NCBI GenBank assembly: GCA_963768055.1
Contig: CAVYGN010000002.1
Location: 1,632,001-1,696,000 of the forward strand
Direction of reading: 5' to 3'
Source of the DNA: an uncultured Spirochaetota bacterium
GTDB lineage: Bacteria; Spirochaetota; Brevinematia; Brevinematales; JAOACQ01
Length of the DNA stretch: 64,000 nt
Made by a program: the position numbers. Numbering within the stretch: the stretch's first letter is position 1; the number at the start of each line of letters is the position of its first letter. Positions 12,001 to 24,000 of this stretch are shown in pieces.

Positions 12001-15000
12001 CTTTATTGAACTTTCTTATTTCGTTTACTACCCATATGCCATCATGTTCGTCTATACGGTGATCGAGAATTAATATATCATAAAATTCATTTTTAATTTT
12101 CTCTATACCTTCCAGCGAACTCATAACACCATCAATATAGTATTTATCAGATAAAAAAGCTTTTATAGTATTTATAATAGCCGGGTCATCATCAATTACA
12201 AGTATGCGTATACCGTTCATATGCTTGCCACTCCTTTTGGTATTTTTATATAAAAACTTGTATGGTTATCATATGAATCATACGAAATTACCCCATTAAA
12301 CCGCCCGCGTATAATAGTTTGTGCTATATAAAGACCAATTCCAGTGCCTTTATTTCCTTTCGAGGTGCACATATTCACAAATAATTTTTTCCTAATATCT
12401 TCTGGTATTGGATTCCCTTTATTAGTAATTGCAATTATCAATTCATTTTTATTTGCTGTGACAGTCAAATCTATTATTTTGTCATTAGAAGCTTCCATTC
12501 CGTTCGTCAGAATTGTGTTGCAAACTTGAACTAGAGAATCGATATCGCCATTTATTATATAGTTTTTGCATTCAATATTTGTTTTTAAAATAATTTCATG
12601 AACCTTCAGTTCATAGTCCATAAGTAGAAGTATACGCTCTATCAAATCATTTATATTAAAACTGTTAATCTCCTTTTCTTTTACCTCTACGGTTATTGCT
12701 TGACCTTTGACCGCATTTATCACATTAGTCATATAAATGTTGTTGTTATTTATGAGTACTTTCCAATATTCCATCTGTCTCATGAGTAAATCCATAACCT
12801 TAGGGTCAAATGAATTCTCTTTATACAATTGATTAATTTTAGAAATACACTCGTTAATTACCCGTATTCCAGCACTTGAAGTCATTAGAGGAGTTTTTAG
12901 ATTATGAGCCACCCCACCAATAATCTGACTTAAAAATATGAGACGTTCGTTTTCGATTATCTGCTTCTGCCTTTCCTCAATTGCTATTATATCCTGCATA
13001 AGAATATCTTGAGATTCTACAACACGCGAGAATTTCTTATCACTGCTCTGATTGCCATTTATTATTTCTTCCTCATTCAGCCATTTTAAGGCTTTATCAA
13101 CAGAATCAAAAATTTTAATGTCATATCTTTTGGCTACAGCAAATATATTTTGGGCAATGATACGTTGTTCAGGACTATTTACCACTGTAGCACTGCGGTA
13201 TATAATTTTTGCGTTTGGATTTTGCAATGATAGTGCGATTTTTATAGTTACATCCCGACCAAAATCCCATCCAAAATCCTGTACATCAGTTAAAACTTTA
13301 ACTTTACCATTTTGAGCACCAACTCGGCCTATTAGCTCATATAATTCTCTGTAGGCATCGTTCAGTTGGCCGAGTGACATGGTTGTTCGATATTTGAAAT
13401 ATATTATCCCATCATCCCTTAGATGGCAAAGTTTTAACTTTCCCATTATAACTTTCCTTTTTTAACAAAACTTTCAGGGATTTTTGTTTTCAATAACTCG
13501 TATAGATCGGGGGCTTCTTTTTCTATTCTGACTGGTCGTTTAACAGAATTAAGCCATACATGTGAACTTATGGCGGTGACGACAAGTTCTGAACTTTTTG
13601 CTTTTTCTAAATCTTCGGGTTTTAGAGTATTTGCTCCTTGAATTATATCAAAATTAACTCGTCTAACCTCATACTCAAAAGAGAATCGAAGGCTCTGCAT
13701 GTCTTTTATTTGTGTAAATATAACTATGTTATCATCAAAAAAAGCAGGCTTTTTATACTGGATGGAAAGATCGGTCACGATTATGAATATTCCACGTTTT
13801 TCCATCTCTGCATACGAGAACCCGTACTGTTTAATTATACTTGATCTAGCCAGTTCCAACCATGGCAAATAACTACCGTGATAAACAATGTTCTGTGGGT
13901 CGCATTCGGGATAGCGGACATTTAAACAATAAGTAAACATTTTCACAACCTCACGATTTTTAAACACTTAATTATAACTTTTTTAATGAATATGTCTAAA
14001 AATTTCAACAAATTTGAAAAAATATTTTCAAATATTATTGACATTTAAAATAATGCAACATATTATATAATAATGTCTGTATTCATGGCATTTTTGCGAT
14101 AATTGTTATAATAATTTGCACAATTTAATTCAAAAAAGTACTTTAATACAAAAAAAGTACTTGAGTACTATTGACACTACACGATTTTATTTTTAAGATG
14201 ATGACACTAAAAATTCTAAGCAGTTTATTTAAGAGTAAATTTATGAGAAAGTCCAGGCGATTGATTCAATTAAAGTGTTTTGATATTGAGATAATATTTA
14301 GGTTTAAAAAAATATAAGGAAAGATTTAAAAGTTTGTACAGCTAAACAAAAAGAAGTCAGGAAATATTTAATTTATTTAAACGTAAATTGAGTTTACTTG
14401 AGTTTGTTAAAAATGTAAAAAATCATTTGTATTGAAATGAGTTTGAATAATAGAATGTCAAGATCTTGGAAATGCAGATTCGATTTGACTAATTTTCCAT
14501 TATTTAAAGGTTAAAATATTTTGTGTGAGAAAAAATGAAAAATAATCGTATTATTATTGGAATCATTGATAGTGGTGTCGACAGAAGGTTTATTATTGAA
14601 AATGGTGCTAAAATTAAAAAAGCGTCCGCATTTAATATAATACAAGAAAGCCGACTTGTAGAGTGTATTGAATATAGTAAAAAAGATATAAAAAAATGGC
14701 TAGCTGGAAAAATCGATCATATATCGGATGAACATGGCCATGGGACTTCTGTTCTTTCTATAATTTGGGGAATTTTACCCAATGCTGAATTCGTGGTTTC
14801 AAAGGTTCTTGACCATGAAAAAAAAGGATATTCGATATGCCTTGTAGAAGCGCTTCGTTGGATGATAGAAAAAACTGATGTCCTTATAATAAATATAAGC
14901 ATTACGACAAATGATACAAATATTAAGGATGATATGTTAAAACTTGTCAAAGAAGCAAAAAAGAAAGGTATAGTTATATATTCAGCGAAAGATAATGAAT

Positions 15001-21000: not shown

Positions 21001-24000
21001 ATATTTTATGGAGATGCTCATGGTATAAAAAAAGAGATTACAAATTTTTTAATTCATGACACATATTTTCATTATAAAAGCTTAACCAGCATGCTTGAAA
21101 AAATTTATCCTGGAAAATTTTATTCAATAGAAAGTTTTATAGATAATTATAGTGAAAAAACTAATTTTTTACCATATTATTATTTTAATTATGTGCAAAA
21201 CATAATCCCCTTTGGAGGTGAACTAAGTAATAATTATATTGGGAAATTTCACTATGAAAATGAAGTGATTGAAAAATTTTGGGATGGTTTTATCTATTTT
21301 GGAGATTCCCAAGTAGGAACACCTCATAATTACTTGAATAATAACAATACTGCAAAAAATCTATTATACTATATAAAATTATTTTATTTGAATAACACAC
21401 CTGATTATTTTATTAAAAATCAATTTCAAAAAGATCTTTATTTTTTAAATGTTTATTACCCTAAAGATTTTGATTATCAATATTGGAACCCTAAGAGGCC
21501 TTTGTTTGAGTGTATCACCAATTTTGAAAATTTCCTTTATACCAATAAGATAATTGATTATACAAACTACGGCATTGGCAATTCTAATTTAGAAAATTAT
21601 CTGACTTGTTTATATAATGGAAAAATAGCATTGGATTATAGTAATTATATCGATTCAATTTATTTTTTAAAAAAATCAGAGAATTATTTCACAAATGATA
21701 TTTATCCGGATTACTTTGTATTTTTAGATTATTATGGGCTAAAAAACTACTATTTAGCGATTAATAAAGGGCAAAGTTTATTATCTAACAATATTATTAA
21801 TTCATTGCCTGAATTACCTTCGTTGTACTCAAATCTTGCAGATTCTTATTTACATATTGCTGATACAAATAATTATTATTTTTATCTTAGCATCTCAACT
21901 AATTTGAAAAAAGAATTAATTTCCAGAGAATTTTTATATAAAGGTAAAGGAGCAATAATTATTAATGTGATTGAATCTTCACAAACTGAAAAATTATTAA
22001 AATTCGGTGATATAATTATTACATACAATGGAAAAGGAATTAGTAACACGGAAGATCTTTTAAAAAACAGGATTAATGATATTTCAAAAGATGTGGTAAT
22101 AGAATACATACGGCAGGGAATAAAAAATAAAATAATTATAAAAGGAGGCCCAATAGGTGTCAACTGTATAACTTATTAATAAAATACAATGATATCTTAA
22201 TGGTAAAATTATTTAATTTGTTGATTTGGAATAAATATTTAAGGAATTGGAGGCTATATGTTGGATTTGGCTTATTTAAATATTGGAACTTTGAAACAAT
22301 TGTATATGCAGTACATCAAAAAAAATGAAAATAAGTATTATTTGATTGACTTCTTTAGTAACTACGATATTCAAATCGATCCAAATGATTGGAATCGAAT
22401 TCAATATGTTAGTAAAGATTTTAACGGTAATATCATTGCTTATTTTGAAGCAAGAATAAATCGAGGATTTAATATTATTAATGATTTAGAAATATTAAAA
22501 TTTATTGAATATCCCAATATAATATGGATTCATGATTTTATCAGATTTCTCAAAGTGTTATTGCTTGAAAAAAACTTCAGAAAAGTGGTTTTTTATGCTA
22601 TCATAGACAACCCATCTTTTACAAAATGTGAACTATATTTATTGAAGTATAAATTGGTTAAAGAAGTTGGTGTAATGAAAAACCATTGTATTCTTAATGA
22701 TGGAAAAATTTATGATATGAAAATTTTTGAGATTGAAAGAGATAATTTAGGAAAATGGTAGAAAATAATGATTTTTAATATTTTATTAAAACTATCAATA
22801 AGAAATCTTTTTCGTCATAAAACAAAGAATCTGCTCGTTGTCCTTATGATCATGACGGGCTGTTCCCTGTTTTTTATAGCTTCCTCGCTTGAATGGAATA
22901 TCAGGGATAACTGGAGGCATTACCTTTCAGATACGGTCTTGGGAGATTACTATATAACTTCGATAACGGGGATCGGCGACGATTACCGTTTTTTTAACAC
23001 TGTCCCGCCGCTGAAATTTATCAATAAGGAAATTATTGATTTTCTCGACAGGAATAAAATTCAATATTCATGCAGGATAAGGACCGGGGCAAAGTATTAT
23101 GATGAGAAGCTCGGGTTTCGGGATTTCAACAAATTCCTCGGTATAGATTTTTTAAAGGAGGAAAAGATCCTCTCCAATATATTGATTTATGACGGCACAT
23201 TCGAACCTGCCTCAGATAACGGCATGGATTTTTTCTGGAATCCTTCCTGGAATTATCAGCCGCCGGTCGGGACAAACCTTGTGGTATTAATTCTTGCACT
23301 TGCCGGATATCTGATTGGTGTATTCATCGGTGCTTTGTCAGGCAGTATAATTGAAAATATGCGGATATACCTGGTGTTCCAGGATTATATGAACGGACCT
23401 GTAATGTTCATTCATTCCTTTTGGGATTTTCTCTACATACTGCTGTTCATATTATTACTGACAGCGGTTTGGAGCATTCCGGTAATTAACCGGATCGTCT
23501 CGAAAGCCCCCGCGAGGGTATTCAGGGAACAATCGTATTAATTGGAGTATTTATGAAGAATTGGATTTTACTTATTACAGCGGCAGTATTAACGGCGGTC
23601 TATTCATTATCTTATTGTATCGATCCGGGCGATGTTATTTCTAAATCCGATAAGCGATTTATACCGGATATATTCACTTATAACATGACCCTCCGGACTA
23701 CTTCGGCAAACGGCAAGATTGATGTAGTGGATTATAAGGGGAAAAAGAAACACGAAAATAATATAATGATCACAATAAATCCGGTCAGTGCAAGGGGGCA
23801 GGTCAACCTGAAAAACAGGAACGTGATATGGAGTTACTTTCCTACCTCGGATACAAGTATAAAGTATAGCTACCAGGCAATAATCCTGGGGACGTCGGTA
23901 AGTTACGGCGACATCCTGGCGCTTGAGCTTTCCCGCGATTATGACGTCCGGTCGATGATCGAAACCTCGAGCCTCGAAACCAATGGCCTCGAGGATCCGG

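What a model noticed while it worked through the whole genome (the two positions that open the first line are those of the whole stretch)
14535..22179. Cys/Ser/Thr-rich RiPP precursor with B12-rSAM, two SPASM rSAMs and an S8 protease
g03238 (79 aa, C2:1649277-1649516) is a RiPP precursor. A leader MKKNPVRFYDIPESLKEIYALGSGSG is followed by a core with five Cys and many Ser/Thr. It is flanked by an S8 protease (g03236), a 634-aa B12-binding radical SAM enzyme (g03237), two radical SAM/SPASM enzymes (g03239, g03240) and a 780-aa protein without family. The leader motif and the gene order recur in other Spirochaetota and define a new precursor family.
Evidence so far: The sequences were read in call 27 and the Pfam rows in call 15. 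Few relatives of g03239 are above 35% identity. In a Brevinematales MAG (L031, 46% identity) the same gene order is found: an S8-like gene, a B12-rSAM of 647 aa, a small ORF, rSAMs of 366 and 357 aa, and an 814-aa protein. The small ORF there (82 aa, GTG start) reads MKKRIVKNYKPSKYLKEIHGLGTGSGSG...CTSPQSFTGGSTPCAACPINPGCGG. In a Treponema MAG (L032, 38% identity) a 58-aa ORF before the rSAM reads MNPIKNYELPSSIKELYS...CQVRFSGGREC. No family matches the peptide at E<=5.
(Added by a program. Inside this text positions count along the whole contig: contig position 1,632,001 is position 1 of the stretch shown here. "Call 12" and the like, gene names such as g00115 and contig names such as C1 are that model's own, and its searches are not shown. 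The text may have been shortened before it was handed on; [...] marks where a part breaks off. The agent that wrote the report below was given it as the finding of a first reader that could run no searches.)

Follow-up and report, generated by a model that had tools for sequence, protein, structure and literature searches.

The report
Rare radical-SAM peptide cluster, possibly lipidated
A small cysteine-rich peptide gene sits among enzymes that probably cross-link, trim, perhaps fatty-acylate and export it; this is a rare, apparently horizontally acquired natural-product cluster of a known general kind, and its product is unknown.

Summary
A 79-aa ORF (17277-17516, good RBS) has a conserved leader and a core with 5 Cys and 16 Ser/Thr. 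It lies between an S8-like protease, a 634-aa radical SAM (rSAM) protein, two rSAM/SPASM paralogues and a 780-aa protein. The same peptide family and rSAM recur in a Brevinematales MAG, a Treponema MAG and, newly, a Fibrobacterota MAG. No library family matches the peptide.

1. The 634-aa enzyme has no detectable B12-binding domain. It descends from B12-type rSAMs, but the domain has diverged.
2. The 780-aa protein has a fold: a TIKI/erythromycin-esterase-like hydrolase with an invariant 2His/2Glu set, followed by TPR and PDZ.
3. The cluster is about twice as long, reaching 30269. It adds two GNAT paralogues, a Lol/MacB-like transporter module that is damaged here, an ACP, a FabF-like ketosynthase and an ABC exporter. 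All 16 genes keep the same order in the Brevinematales MAG.
4. It is the lowest-GC 8 kb of the genome.

Best reading: an rSAM thioether (ranthipeptide/sactipeptide-type) RiPP with a QhpE-like leader protease, possibly acylated. It is a new variant of a known kind. The chemistry is inferred, not shown.

The parts
14535..15233 (+). Short S8-like (QhpE-like) serine protease, no signal peptide; candidate leader peptidase
   Evidence: Pfam Peptidase_S8 38.6 bits, above cut-off 21.8. Best NCBIfam family is QhpE at 58.8 bits, below cut-off 165. DSG at 12, HGT at 69 and SWA at 210 are candidate triad motifs. 67% identical to the G043 orthologue.
15230..17134 (+). 634-aa radical SAM protein: diverged Rossmann-like N-domain, CX4CX2C cluster motif, C-terminal three-strand/three-helix domain
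   Evidence: Pfam hits Radical_SAM only, at 250-412. Cys 247/252/255 are invariant. AF2 model pLDDT 84.7. VIA Z: AprD4 14.2, TsrM 13.4, MtaB 13.4, MgmA 13.0. hhalign probability 99.6% to a B12+rSAM+PqqD protein.
17277..17516 (+). 79-aa RiPP precursor: leader (about residues 1-21), Gly/Ser linker, Cys/Ser/Thr-rich core, Lys-rich tail
17586..18695 (+). rSAM/SPASM maturase 1 (369 aa, no N-terminal RRE); the only enzyme found with the peptide in all four loci
   Evidence: PapB family 177.6 bits (cut-off 340), QhpD 134.4, SCIFF maturase 112.9. Best solved relative is CteB 5wgg, E 2.1e-24. CX3CX2C at 11-18 and CX2CX5CX3C at 298-311. Orthologues are 45, 37 and 40% identical.
18715..19836 (+). rSAM/SPASM maturase 2 (373 aa), a paralogue of maturase 1 (32% identity)
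   Evidence: PapB family 177.4 bits. Pfam SPASM 23.4 bits. Paralogy. Orthologues are present in G043 and G131. Not found in the Fibrobacterota MAG.
19837..22179 (+). 780-aa exported protein: N-terminal hydrophobic segment, beta-sandwich, TIKI/erythromycin-esterase-like hydrolase (about 225-497), TPR (about 580-700), PDZ (about 704-765)
   Evidence: VIA wide: 2qgm Z 17.2, 2rad 16.1, EreC 6xcq 15.8, HopBA1 14.0; TPR matches for the C-terminal half. Foldseek results. H261, E289 and H395 are invariant and E259 nearly so. PDZ_2 19.3 bits here and 27.8 bits in the G043 orthologue.
22258..22761 (+). GNAT-like protein 1 (167 aa); present in all three loci that are complete on that side
   Evidence: ESM Atlas feature score 0.98 to GNAT clusters. 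Its profile hits the paralogue GNAT2 at 1e-47, and GNAT2 passes Pfam Acetyltransf_1. Orthologues are 68% and 33% identical.
22768..23541 (+). In-frame fusion of two FtsX-type permease genes (junction 23282/23283)
   Evidence: Residues 1-180 are 67% identical to G043 permease A. Residues 173-257 are 71% identical to the C-terminus of permease B. Contigs of runs X1 and X2 leave the window sequence exactly at 23282/23283. Both genes are intact in G201.
23553..24326 (+). LolA-like periplasmic protein
   Evidence: Pfam LolA_like 78.1 bits. 68% identical to the G043 orthologue.
24323..25579 (+). 418-aa exported protein of no family; probable outer-membrane barrel (inferred from the signal-like N-terminus and C-terminal Phe)
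   Evidence: No Pfam or NCBIfam hit. 65% identical to the G043 orthologue. Sequence.
25596..26266 (+). ABC ATPase split into two ORFs (107 + 116 aa) by a frameshift near 25889
   Evidence: Both halves hit ABC_tran. They are 86% and 83% identical to the two halves of the intact 223-aa G043 protein.
26310..26843 (+). GNAT-like protein 2 (177 aa)
   Evidence: Pfam Acetyltransf_1 22.6 bits, above cut-off 20.7. 76% identical to the G043 orthologue and 41-44% to GNAT1.
26912..27172 (+). Stand-alone acyl carrier protein
   Evidence: Pfam PP-binding 40.2 bits. NCBIfam ACP families 45-53 bits, below their cut-offs.
27237..28448 (+). FabF-like beta-ketoacyl-ACP synthase
   Evidence: Pfam ketoacyl-synt 127.7 and Ketoacyl-synt_C 99.1 bits. 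NCBIfam fabF 308 bits, below cut-off 494. 71% identical to the G043 orthologue.
28473..30269 (+). MsbA/HlyB-type ABC exporter without a peptidase domain
   Evidence: Pfam ABC_membrane and ABC_tran. NCBIfam MsbA 376 and HlyB 362 bits, both below cut-off. 74% identical to the G043 orthologue.
30516..31442 (+). Tyrosine recombinase next to the cluster (absent at this place in G043)
   Evidence: Pfam Phage_integrase 76 bits.

Best explanation
This is a biosynthetic gene cluster for a ribosomally made, post-translationally modified peptide (RiPP).

Proposed steps (all inferred unless marked):
1. The 79-aa precursor carries a conserved N-terminal leader, a Gly/Ser linker and a Cys/Ser/Thr/Asn-rich core.
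2. The two RRE-less, PapB/QhpD/CteB-like radical SAM/SPASM enzymes abstract a hydrogen from acceptor residues. They join Cys sulfur to carbon, giving several thioether rings. Thr, Ser or Asn are likelier acceptors than Asp or Glu, because acidic residues are not conserved in the cores.
3. The 634-aa rSAM is a descendant of B12-type rSAMs whose cobalamin domain has diverged. It adds a further, unknown modification in the Brevinematales loci only.
4. A cytoplasmic QhpE-like S8 protease removes the leader.
5. GNAT-like proteins may N-acylate the peptide. In the two Brevinematales loci the acyl group could be built on the cluster's own ACP and FabF-like ketosynthase.
6. An MsbA/HlyB-type ABC exporter takes the product out.
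7. Outside the cytoplasm, the TIKI/Ere-like hydrolase with TPR and PDZ either finishes processing (for example of the Lys-rich tail) or protects the producer.

The cluster is foreign by composition. In this genome its Lol/MacB-like transporter module looks damaged.

Shown here: the genes, domains, folds, conservation and distribution.
For: Precursor family:
- Four loci have a small ORF directly before the orthologous rSAM.
- A shared leader is visible and supported by the leave-one-out test.
- A search of 5.8 billion protein clusters with the four-peptide profile returned 5 proteins: the four loci's peptides and one Treponema-type variant.
- That variant differs from its relative mainly in the linker, not in the core.

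Enzymes:
- Both rSAMs score best against thioether-forming families: PapB 177 bits, QhpD 134/72, SCIFF maturase 113/99, CcpM 116/108.
- The nearest solved structure by sequence is CteB.
- Both have the full SPASM Cys set.
- The S8 protein scores best against QhpE. QhpE is the protease that removes the leader of QhpC after QhpD cross-linking and before ABC export (PMC7876137, passages).

Co-variation: between the window and G043, the proteins expected to touch the variable core diverge most (rSAM1 46%, rSAM2 37%, 780-aa 30%; peptide 36%). The others stay at 58-86%.

Hydrolase: fold Z 15.8-17.2 to Ere-like proteins. E259-x-H261, E289 and H395 are conserved with the spacing of the RRSP 2His/2Glu motif (PMC6254334, passages). 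In the Treponema locus it is the only hydrolase gene found in the locus as read, and the exporter there lacks the N-terminal peptidase part of the peptidase-bearing exporter families.

Acylation lead:
- GNAT1 is present in 3 of 3 loci complete on that side.
- GNAT2, ACP, KS and ABC are conserved in order in the window and G043.
- GNATs that transfer ACP-bound or fatty acyl groups to RiPPs are known (PMC8784127, passages).

Foreign origin:
- This is the lowest-GC 8-kb window of 1838 in the genome (0.238 against a mean of 0.415, sd 0.037).
- The rSAM was not found in 4 of 4 other genomes of the genus, which are 94-96% complete.
Against: - No product, transcript or enzyme activity is known. No RNA run was listed (see Tried and rejected).
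- All rSAM scores are far below the curated cut-offs (177 against 340 for PapB), so the chemistry could differ.
- No recognition element for the leader was identified.
- Only precursor plus rSAM1 is common to all four loci. The S8 and 634-aa genes are missing in the Treponema locus. GNAT1, the hydrolase, the 634-aa protein and rSAM2 were not found in the Fibrobacterota MAG, whose completeness is unknown and whose contig ends inside the cluster.
- The TIKI/TPR protein also occurs alone, among housekeeping genes, in 2 of the 5 phylum genomes that have it.
- ACP and KS are present in only two related genomes. The transporter module between the two low-GC blocks also occurs without any RiPP gene in a genus relative, so adjacency may not mean one pathway.
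- GNAT1 itself has no Pfam or PDB sequence hit.
- In this genome a permease fusion and a split ATPase may mean that the cluster is decaying.
Confidence: 0.68

Rival explanations
1. It is a RiPP cluster, but the two rSAM/SPASM enzymes make something other than Cys thioethers. Candidates are carbon-carbon or ether cross-links, or oxidation of Cys or Ser as in anaerobic sulfatase maturases. The Cys would then serve as disulfides or metal ligands.
For: Scores are well below every equivalog cut-off. SPASM enzymes of other chemistries also appear in the hit list: DynA 92.7 bits, anSME 84.8, and the cyclophane-forming YhhB 75.7 and FxsB 54.5. anSME is the second solved relative.
Against: The six best-scoring families for rSAM1 and five of the six best for rSAM2 are Cys-peptide or thioether maturases. 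Cys is the one residue type enriched in every core, with 4-6 per peptide. Aromatic residues, which cyclophane or ether links need, are not conserved: Trp occurs only in the window peptide.
Confidence: 0.15
2. The cluster is real but is an inactive relic in this genome. It would be acquired DNA whose export or immunity part has already broken, so no product is made.
For: Two permease genes are fused in frame and about 640 codons are lost. The ABC ATPase is split by a one-base loss relative to G043. The composition is extremely foreign. A recombinase gene is adjacent.
Against: All eleven other cluster ORFs are intact and full-length against G043. The second ABC exporter is intact. Contigs of two public runs follow the undeleted permease form at the junction, so the fusion may be a strain variant or an assembly error. 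The frameshift sits in a short run of A and could be a sequencing error.
Confidence: 0.2
3. The small protein is not a secreted natural product. It would be a cross-linked subunit or cofactor carrier, as QhpC is in quinohemoprotein amine dehydrogenase.
For: The trio of rSAM-SPASM, short subtilisin-like protease and ABC exporter mirrors QhpD/QhpE/QhpF.
Against: No heme, propeller or flavoprotein partner gene was found among the 14 neighbours scanned. QhpD scores 134 bits against cut-off 453, and QhpE 58.8 against 165. The Trp that the quinone cofactor needs is present only in the window peptide.
Confidence: 0.03
4. The 79-aa ORF is a chance open frame in an intergenic spacer.
For: No family matches it. 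The region is AT-rich, where promoter-like sites are no more frequent than in shuffles (42 against 34.2, sd 5.4).
Against: It has a Shine-Dalgarno sequence. Its GC is 0.375 in a 0.21-0.24 neighbourhood. Homologues sit in the same place in three other loci from three lineages.
Confidence: 0.02

Closest known systems
Ranthipeptides / SCIFF peptides and their maturases (PapB-freyrasin, CteB-CteA, NxxcB)
   Same: Leader plus Cys-rich core. An rSAM enzyme with a SPASM domain carrying two auxiliary-cluster Cys sets. Best family hits (PapB 177 bits) and nearest solved structure (CteB). Known acceptors include Thr, Asn and Asp (PMC8326336, passages), and Thr and Asn abound in these cores.
   Different: Scores are about half the equivalog cut-offs. 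There are two paralogous maturases and no N-terminal domain before the cluster motif: residue 7 aligns to profile position about 100 of the SCIFF, QhpD and CcpM models. No acidic acceptor is conserved. The peptide fits no precursor model. The accessory genes (TIKI-like hydrolase, GNATs, ACP, KS, 634-aa rSAM) are not part of those systems as far as I recall.
QhpC/QhpD/QhpE/QhpF maturation of quinohemoprotein amine dehydrogenase
   Same: An rSAM-SPASM thioether enzyme, a short cytoplasmic subtilisin-like protease that removes an N-terminal leader, and then an ABC exporter (PMC7876137). QhpE is the best NCBIfam hit of the S8 gene.
   Different: No dehydrogenase subunits and no QhpG. Both scores are far below cut-off. 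The substrate is a short, hypervariable peptide.
Class B (cobalamin-dependent) rSAM enzymes of RiPP and antibiotic pathways (TsrM, OxsB, TokK, CysS, MgmA) and the cobalamin-free relative AprD4
   Same: The architecture is a Rossmann-like N-domain followed by an rSAM barrel (VIA Z 12-14.2). There is profile homology through the B12-domain region to a protein that passes PF02310.
   Different: No PF02310 hit in the window protein or in 6 homologues scanned at E up to 10. None of about 20 full-length relatives carries it in the precomputed list. The Gly-Gly stretch of the relative's B12 domain is replaced. The cluster motif is CX4CX2C. The top structural match, AprD4, is a diol dehydratase by its entry title; that it works without cobalamin is my recollection.
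TIKI / erythromycin-esterase / ChaN superfamily (Bcr135, EreC, HopBA1, RRSP)
   Same: Fold (Z 14-17.2) and a conserved Glu-x-His, Glu, His set with RRSP-like spacing. Such proteins have been noted in graspetide RiPP loci, as possible leader peptidases or resistance proteins (PMC8939145, passages).
   Different: No Pfam model matches. It is fused to a beta-sandwich, TPR and PDZ, and it is exported. Its substrate is unknown.
GNAT-acylated RiPP lipopeptides (selidamides, goadvionins, lipolanthines)
   Same: GNAT genes inside a RiPP cluster. In two loci there are a dedicated ACP and ketosynthase. The window and G043 peptides have Lys-rich termini, like the proposed acylation sites of selidamide precursors (PMC8784127).
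   Different: The scaffold would be rSAM thioether rather than lanthionine or avionin. GNAT1 lacks a recognisable acyl-CoA motif by Pfam. No acyl product is known.

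Membership tests
rSAM/SPASM thioether RiPP systems (ranthipeptide or sactipeptide type) | Precursor with a leader and a Cys-bearing core encoded beside the maturase | tested here: met
rSAM/SPASM thioether RiPP systems (ranthipeptide or sactipeptide type) | Maturase with CX3CX2C and a SPASM domain with a full auxiliary Cys set | tested here: met
   rSAM1: Cys 11/15/18 and 298/301/307/311 plus 240, 243, 258 and 330. 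rSAM2: Cys 10/14/17 and 307/310/316/320. Pfam SPASM hits rSAM2 only.
rSAM/SPASM thioether RiPP systems (ranthipeptide or sactipeptide type) | Score above the curated cut-off of a characterised maturase family (PapB, SCIFF/CteB, QhpD, CcpM) | tested here: not met
   177 against 340, 113 against 425, 134 against 453, 116 against 500.
rSAM/SPASM thioether RiPP systems (ranthipeptide or sactipeptide type) | S-to-C thioether link in the product, and which carbon (alpha, beta or gamma) | not testable with these tools
   Needs MS/MS and NMR of the product.
rSAM/SPASM thioether RiPP systems (ranthipeptide or sactipeptide type) | RiPP recognition element (PqqD-like) in the maturase or as a partner | tested here: inconclusive
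   rSAM1 and rSAM2 have no N-terminal domain. The 634-aa model ends in three strands and three helices, but hhalign did not reach the PqqD region of P0043. The domain could not be folded alone.
QHNDH maturation system (Qhp) | QhpD and QhpE equivalogs together with the dehydrogenase subunits | tested here: not met
   Both are below cut-off. No subunit genes among the neighbours.
Class B cobalamin-dependent rSAM | B12-binding domain (PF02310) | tested here: not met
   No hit at E up to 10 in the window protein, its N-terminal 247 residues, or 6 homologues. It is absent from the precomputed domains of about 20 full-length relatives.
Class B cobalamin-dependent rSAM | Homology and fold of a Rossmann-like N-domain plus an rSAM barrel | tested here: met
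   hhalign probability 99.6%, E 2e-24, over query 129-462 including the relative's PF02310 segment. VIA Z 12-14.
Class B cobalamin-dependent rSAM | Cobalamin actually bound | not testable with these tools
   Needs purified protein.
TIKI / Ere / ChaN superfamily | Parallel beta-sheet core fold | tested here: met
   2qgm: Z 17.2, rmsd 3.7 over 237 residues. 2rad: Z 16.1. 6xcq: Z 15.8. 5t09: Z 14.0.
TIKI / Ere / ChaN superfamily | 2His/2Glu catalytic set | tested here: met
   H261, E289 and H395 are invariant and E259 is at least 90% conserved in 36 sequences. The match to the RRSP residues is by motif and spacing, not by superposition.
GNAT superfamily | Pfam GNAT model above its cut-off | tested here: met
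   GNAT2: 22.6 against 20.7 bits. GNAT1 has no direct hit but is a paralogue (1e-47) and scores 0.98 by ESM features.
RiPP lipopeptides | Acyl group on the mature peptide | not testable with these tools
   Only gene content is available.

The most novel reading that the evidence does not exclude
The cluster makes a ribosomal thioether lipopeptide. The peptide would be stapled by rSAM enzymes and acylated by the GNAT pair with a chain built on the cluster's own ACP and ketosynthase. A Lol/MacB-like module (permeases, LolA-like carrier, outer-membrane barrel) would carry it across a diderm envelope, and a periplasmic TIKI-family hydrolase would give the final cut or protect the producer. That would be a new RiPP-lipid hybrid class and a new use of Lol-like machinery.
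Probability: 0.22. Interest if true: 0.8.

Novelty: new variant of a known kind. Interest (0 to 1): 0.55.

Why it matters
rSAM-made thioether peptides are a growing source of new enzyme chemistry and of bioactive peptides. This family differs in several ways:
- It comes from barely studied diderm lineages (Brevinematales, Treponema, Fibrobacterota).
- Its maturases lack a recognition domain.
- It brings together a combination I did not meet in the papers I opened or recall: two paralogous SPASM enzymes, a B12-type rSAM with a diverged cofactor domain, a TIKI-family hydrolase, and GNAT/ACP/ketosynthase genes.

If the acylation lead is right, it adds a new route to ribosomal lipopeptides. If not, it is still a compact test case for how RRE-less maturases find their leader, and for what TIKI-like hydrolases do in RiPP loci.

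Tried and rejected
- Complex prediction of the 634-aa protein with the precursor gave no verdict (scores 0.02 and 0.22 against a mark of 0.32). It counts neither way.
- The look-up of sequencing runs listed no RNA holder, so there is nothing on expression.
- The first scan of genome contigs with the single rSAM found nothing. The repeat with an alignment gave 65 loci, of which only three are of this family.
- The metagenome scan kept 80 loci. Only one, the Treponema type again, is of this family.
- A single-sequence search with the peptide in the 5.8-billion-cluster collection found only itself.
- The profile of GNAT1 against PDB sequences gave 0 hits at E up to 10.
- Sequence searches of the 634-aa and 780-aa proteins against PDB gave nothing useful.
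- No att-like direct repeats flank the island. There is no tRNA in the window. No terminator-like site was found, and promoter-like sites are not above shuffles.
- The search of earlier findings showed nothing in three look-ups.
- I asked whether the TIKI/TPR protein is RiPP-specific. It is not: it stands alone in G301 and G328.
- I asked whether the Lol-like module belongs only to this cluster. It does not: G201 has it alone.
- I considered a methylthiotransferase role for the 634-aa protein, because of MiaB/RimO/MtaB fold matches. I set it aside because the N-domain has no conserved Cys.

Full report
WHAT IS THERE

On the + strand the window holds a tight run of genes:
- an S8-like gene, 14535-15233 (232 aa);
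- a 634-aa radical SAM (rSAM) gene, 15230-17134;
- after a 142-base spacer, a 79-aa ORF, 17277-17516, with AAAGGAG a few bases before its ATG;
- two rSAM genes, 17586-18695 (369 aa) and 18715-19836 (373 aa);
- a 780-aa ORF, 19837-22179.

Cys are at 35, 36, 45, 47 and 58. The 53 residues after the GSGSG linker hold 8 Ser, 8 Thr, 5 Cys and 4 Asn.

IS THE SMALL ORF REAL, AND IS IT A FAMILY?

In its own genome the peptide is single-copy: one true match, and a second at E 1.33. A search of 401 genomes of the phylum with rSAM1 gave 6 genomes at E <= 1e-30, G000 included.
- Two are strong: G043, same family, 45% identity, 348 bits; and G131, a Treponema-family genome, 37%, 238 bits.
- Three genomes of one other genus score only about 118 bits at 25-26% identity.
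- None of the 4 other genomes of the same genus (94-96% complete) has a match.

The scan of one genome per species found 65 loci. Only three have 38% identity or more:
- a Brevinematales MAG (the same 45,468-base contig as G043:C3);
- a Treponema MAG (the same 230,936-base contig as G131:C33);
- a Fibrobacterota MAG, which is new.
The next best is at 33% (best segment, query residues 4-175 only); no other locus matched over most of the query exceeds 29%. The metagenome scan kept 80 loci and added only another copy of the Treponema type. Among 301 genomes of the Treponema family, 2 matched at 1e-40, and the second was far weaker (148 bits).

In each of the three other loci a small ORF stands directly before the orthologous rSAM on the same strand: 82 aa with a GTG start, 70 aa and 81 aa. 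Aligned, they share a leader of the form M-[KS]-[KL]-x-[PI]-[VL]-[KR]-x-Y-x-x-[PS]-[ESK]-x-[LI]-[KS]-[ED]-[IL]. A Gly-rich linker and a core with 4-6 Cys follow.

A leader profile searched over 28,475 six-frame ORFs of 164 loci plus the window found only these four loci with E below 0.01. That test is circular, so I repeated it leaving one locus out each time. The window, Brevinematales and Fibrobacterota leaders each came first among non-training ORFs (E 0.056, 0.045, 1e-5). The Treponema leader did not. Its membership therefore rests on position and on the weaker P-V-K-x-Y similarity.

The four-peptide profile against 5.8 billion protein clusters returned five proteins: the four loci's peptides and one more Treponema-type variant. 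That variant differs from its relative mainly in the linker. No Pfam or NCBIfam model matches any of the five at E <= 10, apart from one meaningless 12-bit hit.

The cores are not entirely unrelated. The window and the Fibrobacterota peptide share SGSVAG-x-x-C-[ST].

THE TWO SPASM ENZYMES

- Both score best against the PapB family of ranthipeptide maturases (177.6 and 177.4 bits; cut-off 340).
- Other Cys-peptide maturases follow: QhpD 134/72, nif11-type 123/110, CcpM 116/108, SCIFF maturase 113/99, CXXX-repeat 107/128.
- The nearest solved structure by sequence is CteB (5wgg, E 2.1e-24), then anaerobic sulfatase maturase.
- Both have CX3CX2C at residues 10-18 and a CX2CX5CX3C block with further Cys. 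Pfam's SPASM model passes only for the second.
- Both begin at the cluster motif. Residue 7 aligns to about position 100 of the SCIFF, QhpD and CcpM profiles, so the N-terminal domain of those enzymes is absent.
- They are paralogues, 32% identical.

Ranthipeptide acceptors known so far are Thr (C-gamma), Asn and Asp (C-beta), and Asp/Glu in QhpC (PMC8326336, passages). Acidic residues are not conserved in these cores. If thioethers are made, Thr, Ser or Asn, or alpha-carbons, are the likelier acceptors. That is inference.

THE S8-LIKE PROTEIN

It passes Pfam Peptidase_S8 (38.6 bits). Its best NCBIfam family is QhpE, at 58.8 bits against a cut-off of 165. It has no signal peptide. DSG (12), HGT (69) and SWA (210) are the candidate triad motifs, and PSWACAVAV is conserved in G043.

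QhpE removes the 28-residue leader of QhpC in the cytoplasm. It acts after QhpD has made the thioethers and before export by an ABC transporter (PMC7876137, passages). This is the closest known working model for that part of the cluster.

THE 634-aa ENZYME IS NOT A DEMONSTRABLE B12 ENZYME

- Pfam sees only the rSAM core at 250-412, even at E <= 10. It sees nothing in the first 247 residues or the last 105, and the same holds for six homologues.
- The word-based search listed 54 proteins. About 20 are full-length relatives at 36-58% identity, and all carry PF04055 only. PF02310 appears only among distant hits that cover about a third of the query.
- In an alignment of 20 of those 54, the invariant Cys are 247, 252 and 255, that is CX4CX2C. 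The N-domain has no conserved Cys.
- The model built from that alignment is good (pLDDT 84.7, pTM 0.88).
- Its best matches are two-domain rSAMs: AprD4 (Foldseek 5.6e-7; VIA Z 14.2), TsrM 13.4, MtaB 13.4, MgmA 13.0, MiaB 12.8, OxsB 12.0. These rows are effectively tied.
- A profile comparison with P0043, which passes PF02310, PF04055 and PqqD, gave 99.6% probability over query 129-462. That span includes the relative's B12 segment. The relative's Gly-Gly stretch is replaced in the window family, and both share the CYWNKCSFC motif.

So the enzyme descends from B12-type rSAMs. Whether it still binds cobalamin is open.

Its last 95 residues fold as three strands and three helices. This is the topology I recall for PqqD-like recognition elements.

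THE 780-aa PROTEIN HAS A FOLD

An exhaustive HMMER search of 1.84 billion representatives gave 104 proteins at E <= 0.001. About seven are of comparable length (698-938 aa, aligned over most of the query), and about 60 are proteins of about 500 aa that match residues 235-690.

I aligned residues 225-700 with 35 of those 104. In the numbering of the whole protein, H261, R284, E289, E343, R366, D367, G392 and H395 are invariant, and E259 is at least 90% conserved.

The model (pLDDT 85.7) matches erythromycin-esterase-like proteins over its first 273 residues:
- 2qgm, Z 17.2, rmsd 3.7 over 237 residues;
- 2rad, Z 16.1;
- EreC 6xcq, Z 15.8;
- HopBA1, Z 14.0.
It matches TPR proteins over residues 355-474 of the fragment. 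Foldseek agrees: 2rad 9.7e-4 and RRSP 4e-3.

The RRSP paper names Bcr135, HopBA1 and ChaN as TIKI-superfamily folds. It names E3900, H3902, E3930 and H4030 as the catalytic 2His/2Glu set (PMC6254334, passages). The window protein has Glu-x-His, then Glu 30 residues later, then His 136 residues after the first Glu. That is the same pattern. The correspondence rests on motif and spacing, not on superposition.

- N-terminal region: a hydrophobic segment and weak CarboxypepD_reg-like matches.
- C-terminal region: a PDZ domain (19.3 bits here; 27.8 bits, above cut-off, in G043).
- The Treponema homologue (533 aa) starts with a lipoprotein-like signal and has no PDZ.

The protein works outside the cytoplasm. 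TIKI/TraB and Ere-like proteins have been noticed in graspetide loci and proposed as leader peptidases or resistance proteins (PMC8939145, passages).

Two facts pull in different directions. In the Treponema locus this is the only hydrolase gene: there is no S8, and the exporter lacks the N-terminal peptidase part of the peptidase-bearing families. That suggests a processing role. However, of 5 phylum genomes with the protein among 401 searched, two carry it alone among housekeeping genes. That fits a general role or an orphan-immunity role.

THE CLUSTER IS LONGER THAN THE FINDING

Downstream of the 780-aa gene lie:
- a 167-aa protein, GNAT-like by ESM features at 0.98;
- a 257-aa FtsX-like ORF;
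- a LolA-like protein;
- a 418-aa exported protein of no family;
- an ABC ATPase in two pieces;
- a second GNAT-like protein (177 aa; Acetyltransf_1 22.6 bits, above cut-off);
- an acyl carrier protein;
- a FabF-like ketosynthase (308 bits, below cut-off 494);
- an MsbA/HlyB-type exporter.

G043 has all 16 genes in the same order, between hydrogenase-maturase-like genes.

Protein identities between the window and G043:

| Protein | Identity (%) |
|---|---|
| S8 | 67 |
| 634-aa rSAM | 58 |
| peptide | 36 |
| rSAM1 | 46 |
| rSAM2 | 37 |
| 780-aa | 30 |
| GNAT1 | 69 |
| permeases | 67 / 71 |
| LolA-like | 68 |
| 418-aa | 65 |
| ATPase | 86 / 83 |
| GNAT2 | 76 |
| ACP | 62 |
| KS | 71 |
| exporter | 74 |

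The three proteins expected to touch the variable core are the most diverged.

The Treponema locus has GNAT1, peptide, rSAM1, rSAM2, the TIKI/TPR protein, an HlyD-type adaptor and an ABC exporter. It has no S8, 634-aa, ACP or KS gene. The Fibrobacterota contig ends inside an S8-like gene just after rSAM1. In that MAG (4.1 Mb, completeness not given) I found no rSAM2, GNAT1, TIKI or 634-aa homologue with these queries.

So only peptide plus rSAM1 is universal. GNAT1 and the TIKI protein are shared by the three spirochaete loci.

GNATs that move ACP-bound or fatty acyl groups onto RiPPs are known, and Lys-rich termini are proposed acylation sites (PMC8784127, passages). The window and G043 peptides end in Lys-rich tails, and the Treponema peptide does not. 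The tail also correlates with the PDZ domain, so the two ideas cannot be separated with three loci.

ORIGIN AND STATE

The genome is 41.5% GC. The 8 kb holding the cluster is the lowest of 1838 windows (0.238; mean 0.415, sd 0.037).

Gene by gene in the window:

| Genes | GC |
|---|---|
| 634-aa, rSAM1, rSAM2, 780-aa, GNAT1 | 0.21-0.24 |
| S8 | 0.31 |
| peptide | 0.375 |
| transporter module | 0.40-0.43 |
| GNAT2, ACP, KS, exporter | 0.25-0.33 |

The Treponema locus is also AT-rich against its flanks (0.25-0.29 against 0.42). The G043 cluster is only mildly so (0.34-0.44).

A genus relative, G201, has the transporter module alone and intact, with no RiPP, GNAT, ACP or KS gene beside it. A tyrosine recombinase follows the cluster in the window. 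I found no att-like repeats and no tRNA. The mosaic is unexplained.

Two lesions hit the transporter module here.
- The 257-aa ORF is an in-frame fusion of the first about 172 residues of permease A with the last 85 of permease B.
- The ATPase is split by a one-base loss relative to G043.

Contigs of two public runs from one study match many parts of the cluster: 28 of 37 laid contigs at 99% or more in X1, and 10 of 17 in X2. These include low-GC genes. At 23282 and 23283 they leave the window sequence. The X1 continuation reads, by my own translation, like the missing continuation of permease A. The fusion is therefore a strain variant or an assembly error, not a fixed state. These runs may be the source of the assembly, so they are not independent proof.

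VERDICT

The cluster is a real, rare and compositionally foreign RiPP cluster with a new precursor family. It most likely works as an rSAM thioether system with a Qhp-like protease step. Acylation and the role of the TIKI-like hydrolase are leads. It is a new variant of a known kind.

Noticed in passing
window 22768-23541: The FtsX-like ORF is an in-frame fusion of two neighbouring permease genes, with the junction at 23282/23283. Public-run contigs diverge exactly there and follow the undeleted form. A genus relative (G201) has both genes intact.
   Followed up: yes
window 25596-26266: The ABC ATPase of the Lol/MacB-like module is split into 107-aa and 116-aa ORFs by a one-base loss in a short A run near 25889, relative to the intact 223-aa G043 protein. 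It could be a sequencing error.
   Followed up: partly
window 14000-30300: GC mosaic inside one conserved 16-gene arrangement: two blocks at 0.21-0.33 flank a transporter module at 0.40-0.43, which is close to the genome mean. One low-depth X1 contig also leaves the window sequence at 22792, a few codons into permease A. No mechanism was established.
   Followed up: partly
window 17268-17284 and 23544-23560: An exact 17-base repeat (GGAGTATTTATGAAGAA) covers the ribosome-binding site and start codon of both the precursor gene and the LolA-like gene.
   Followed up: no
window 15230-17134; protein P0043: The 634-aa family and a distant B12+rSAM+PqqD relative share an unusual CX4CX2C motif (CYWNKCSFC) in place of the canonical CX3CX2C.
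   Followed up: partly
L192 8842-10314 (G301); L193 9520-11172 (G328): Homologues of the TIKI/TPR protein of about 500 aa, with lipoprotein-like starts, stand alone among housekeeping genes in two Treponema-family genomes. No rSAM, GNAT or leader-type ORF lies within about 9 kb.
   Followed up: yes
window 30516-31442 and on to about 39000: A tyrosine recombinase follows the cluster, and GC stays low (0.26-0.35) to about 39 kb. This suggests a larger island whose limits I did not define.
   Followed up: no
window 9141-13967, minus strand: A TonB-dependent receptor, a response regulator with an XRE-type HTH, a histidine kinase with a STAS-like N-domain and a YbgC-type thioesterase lie upstream on the other strand. 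They are not conserved beside the G043 cluster.
   Followed up: partly
proteins P0022 and P0023: A Candidatus Margulisbacteria MAG encodes two adjacent homologues (36-37% identity) of the 634-aa rSAM, judging by their consecutive locus tags. Their context could not be fetched.
   Followed up: no
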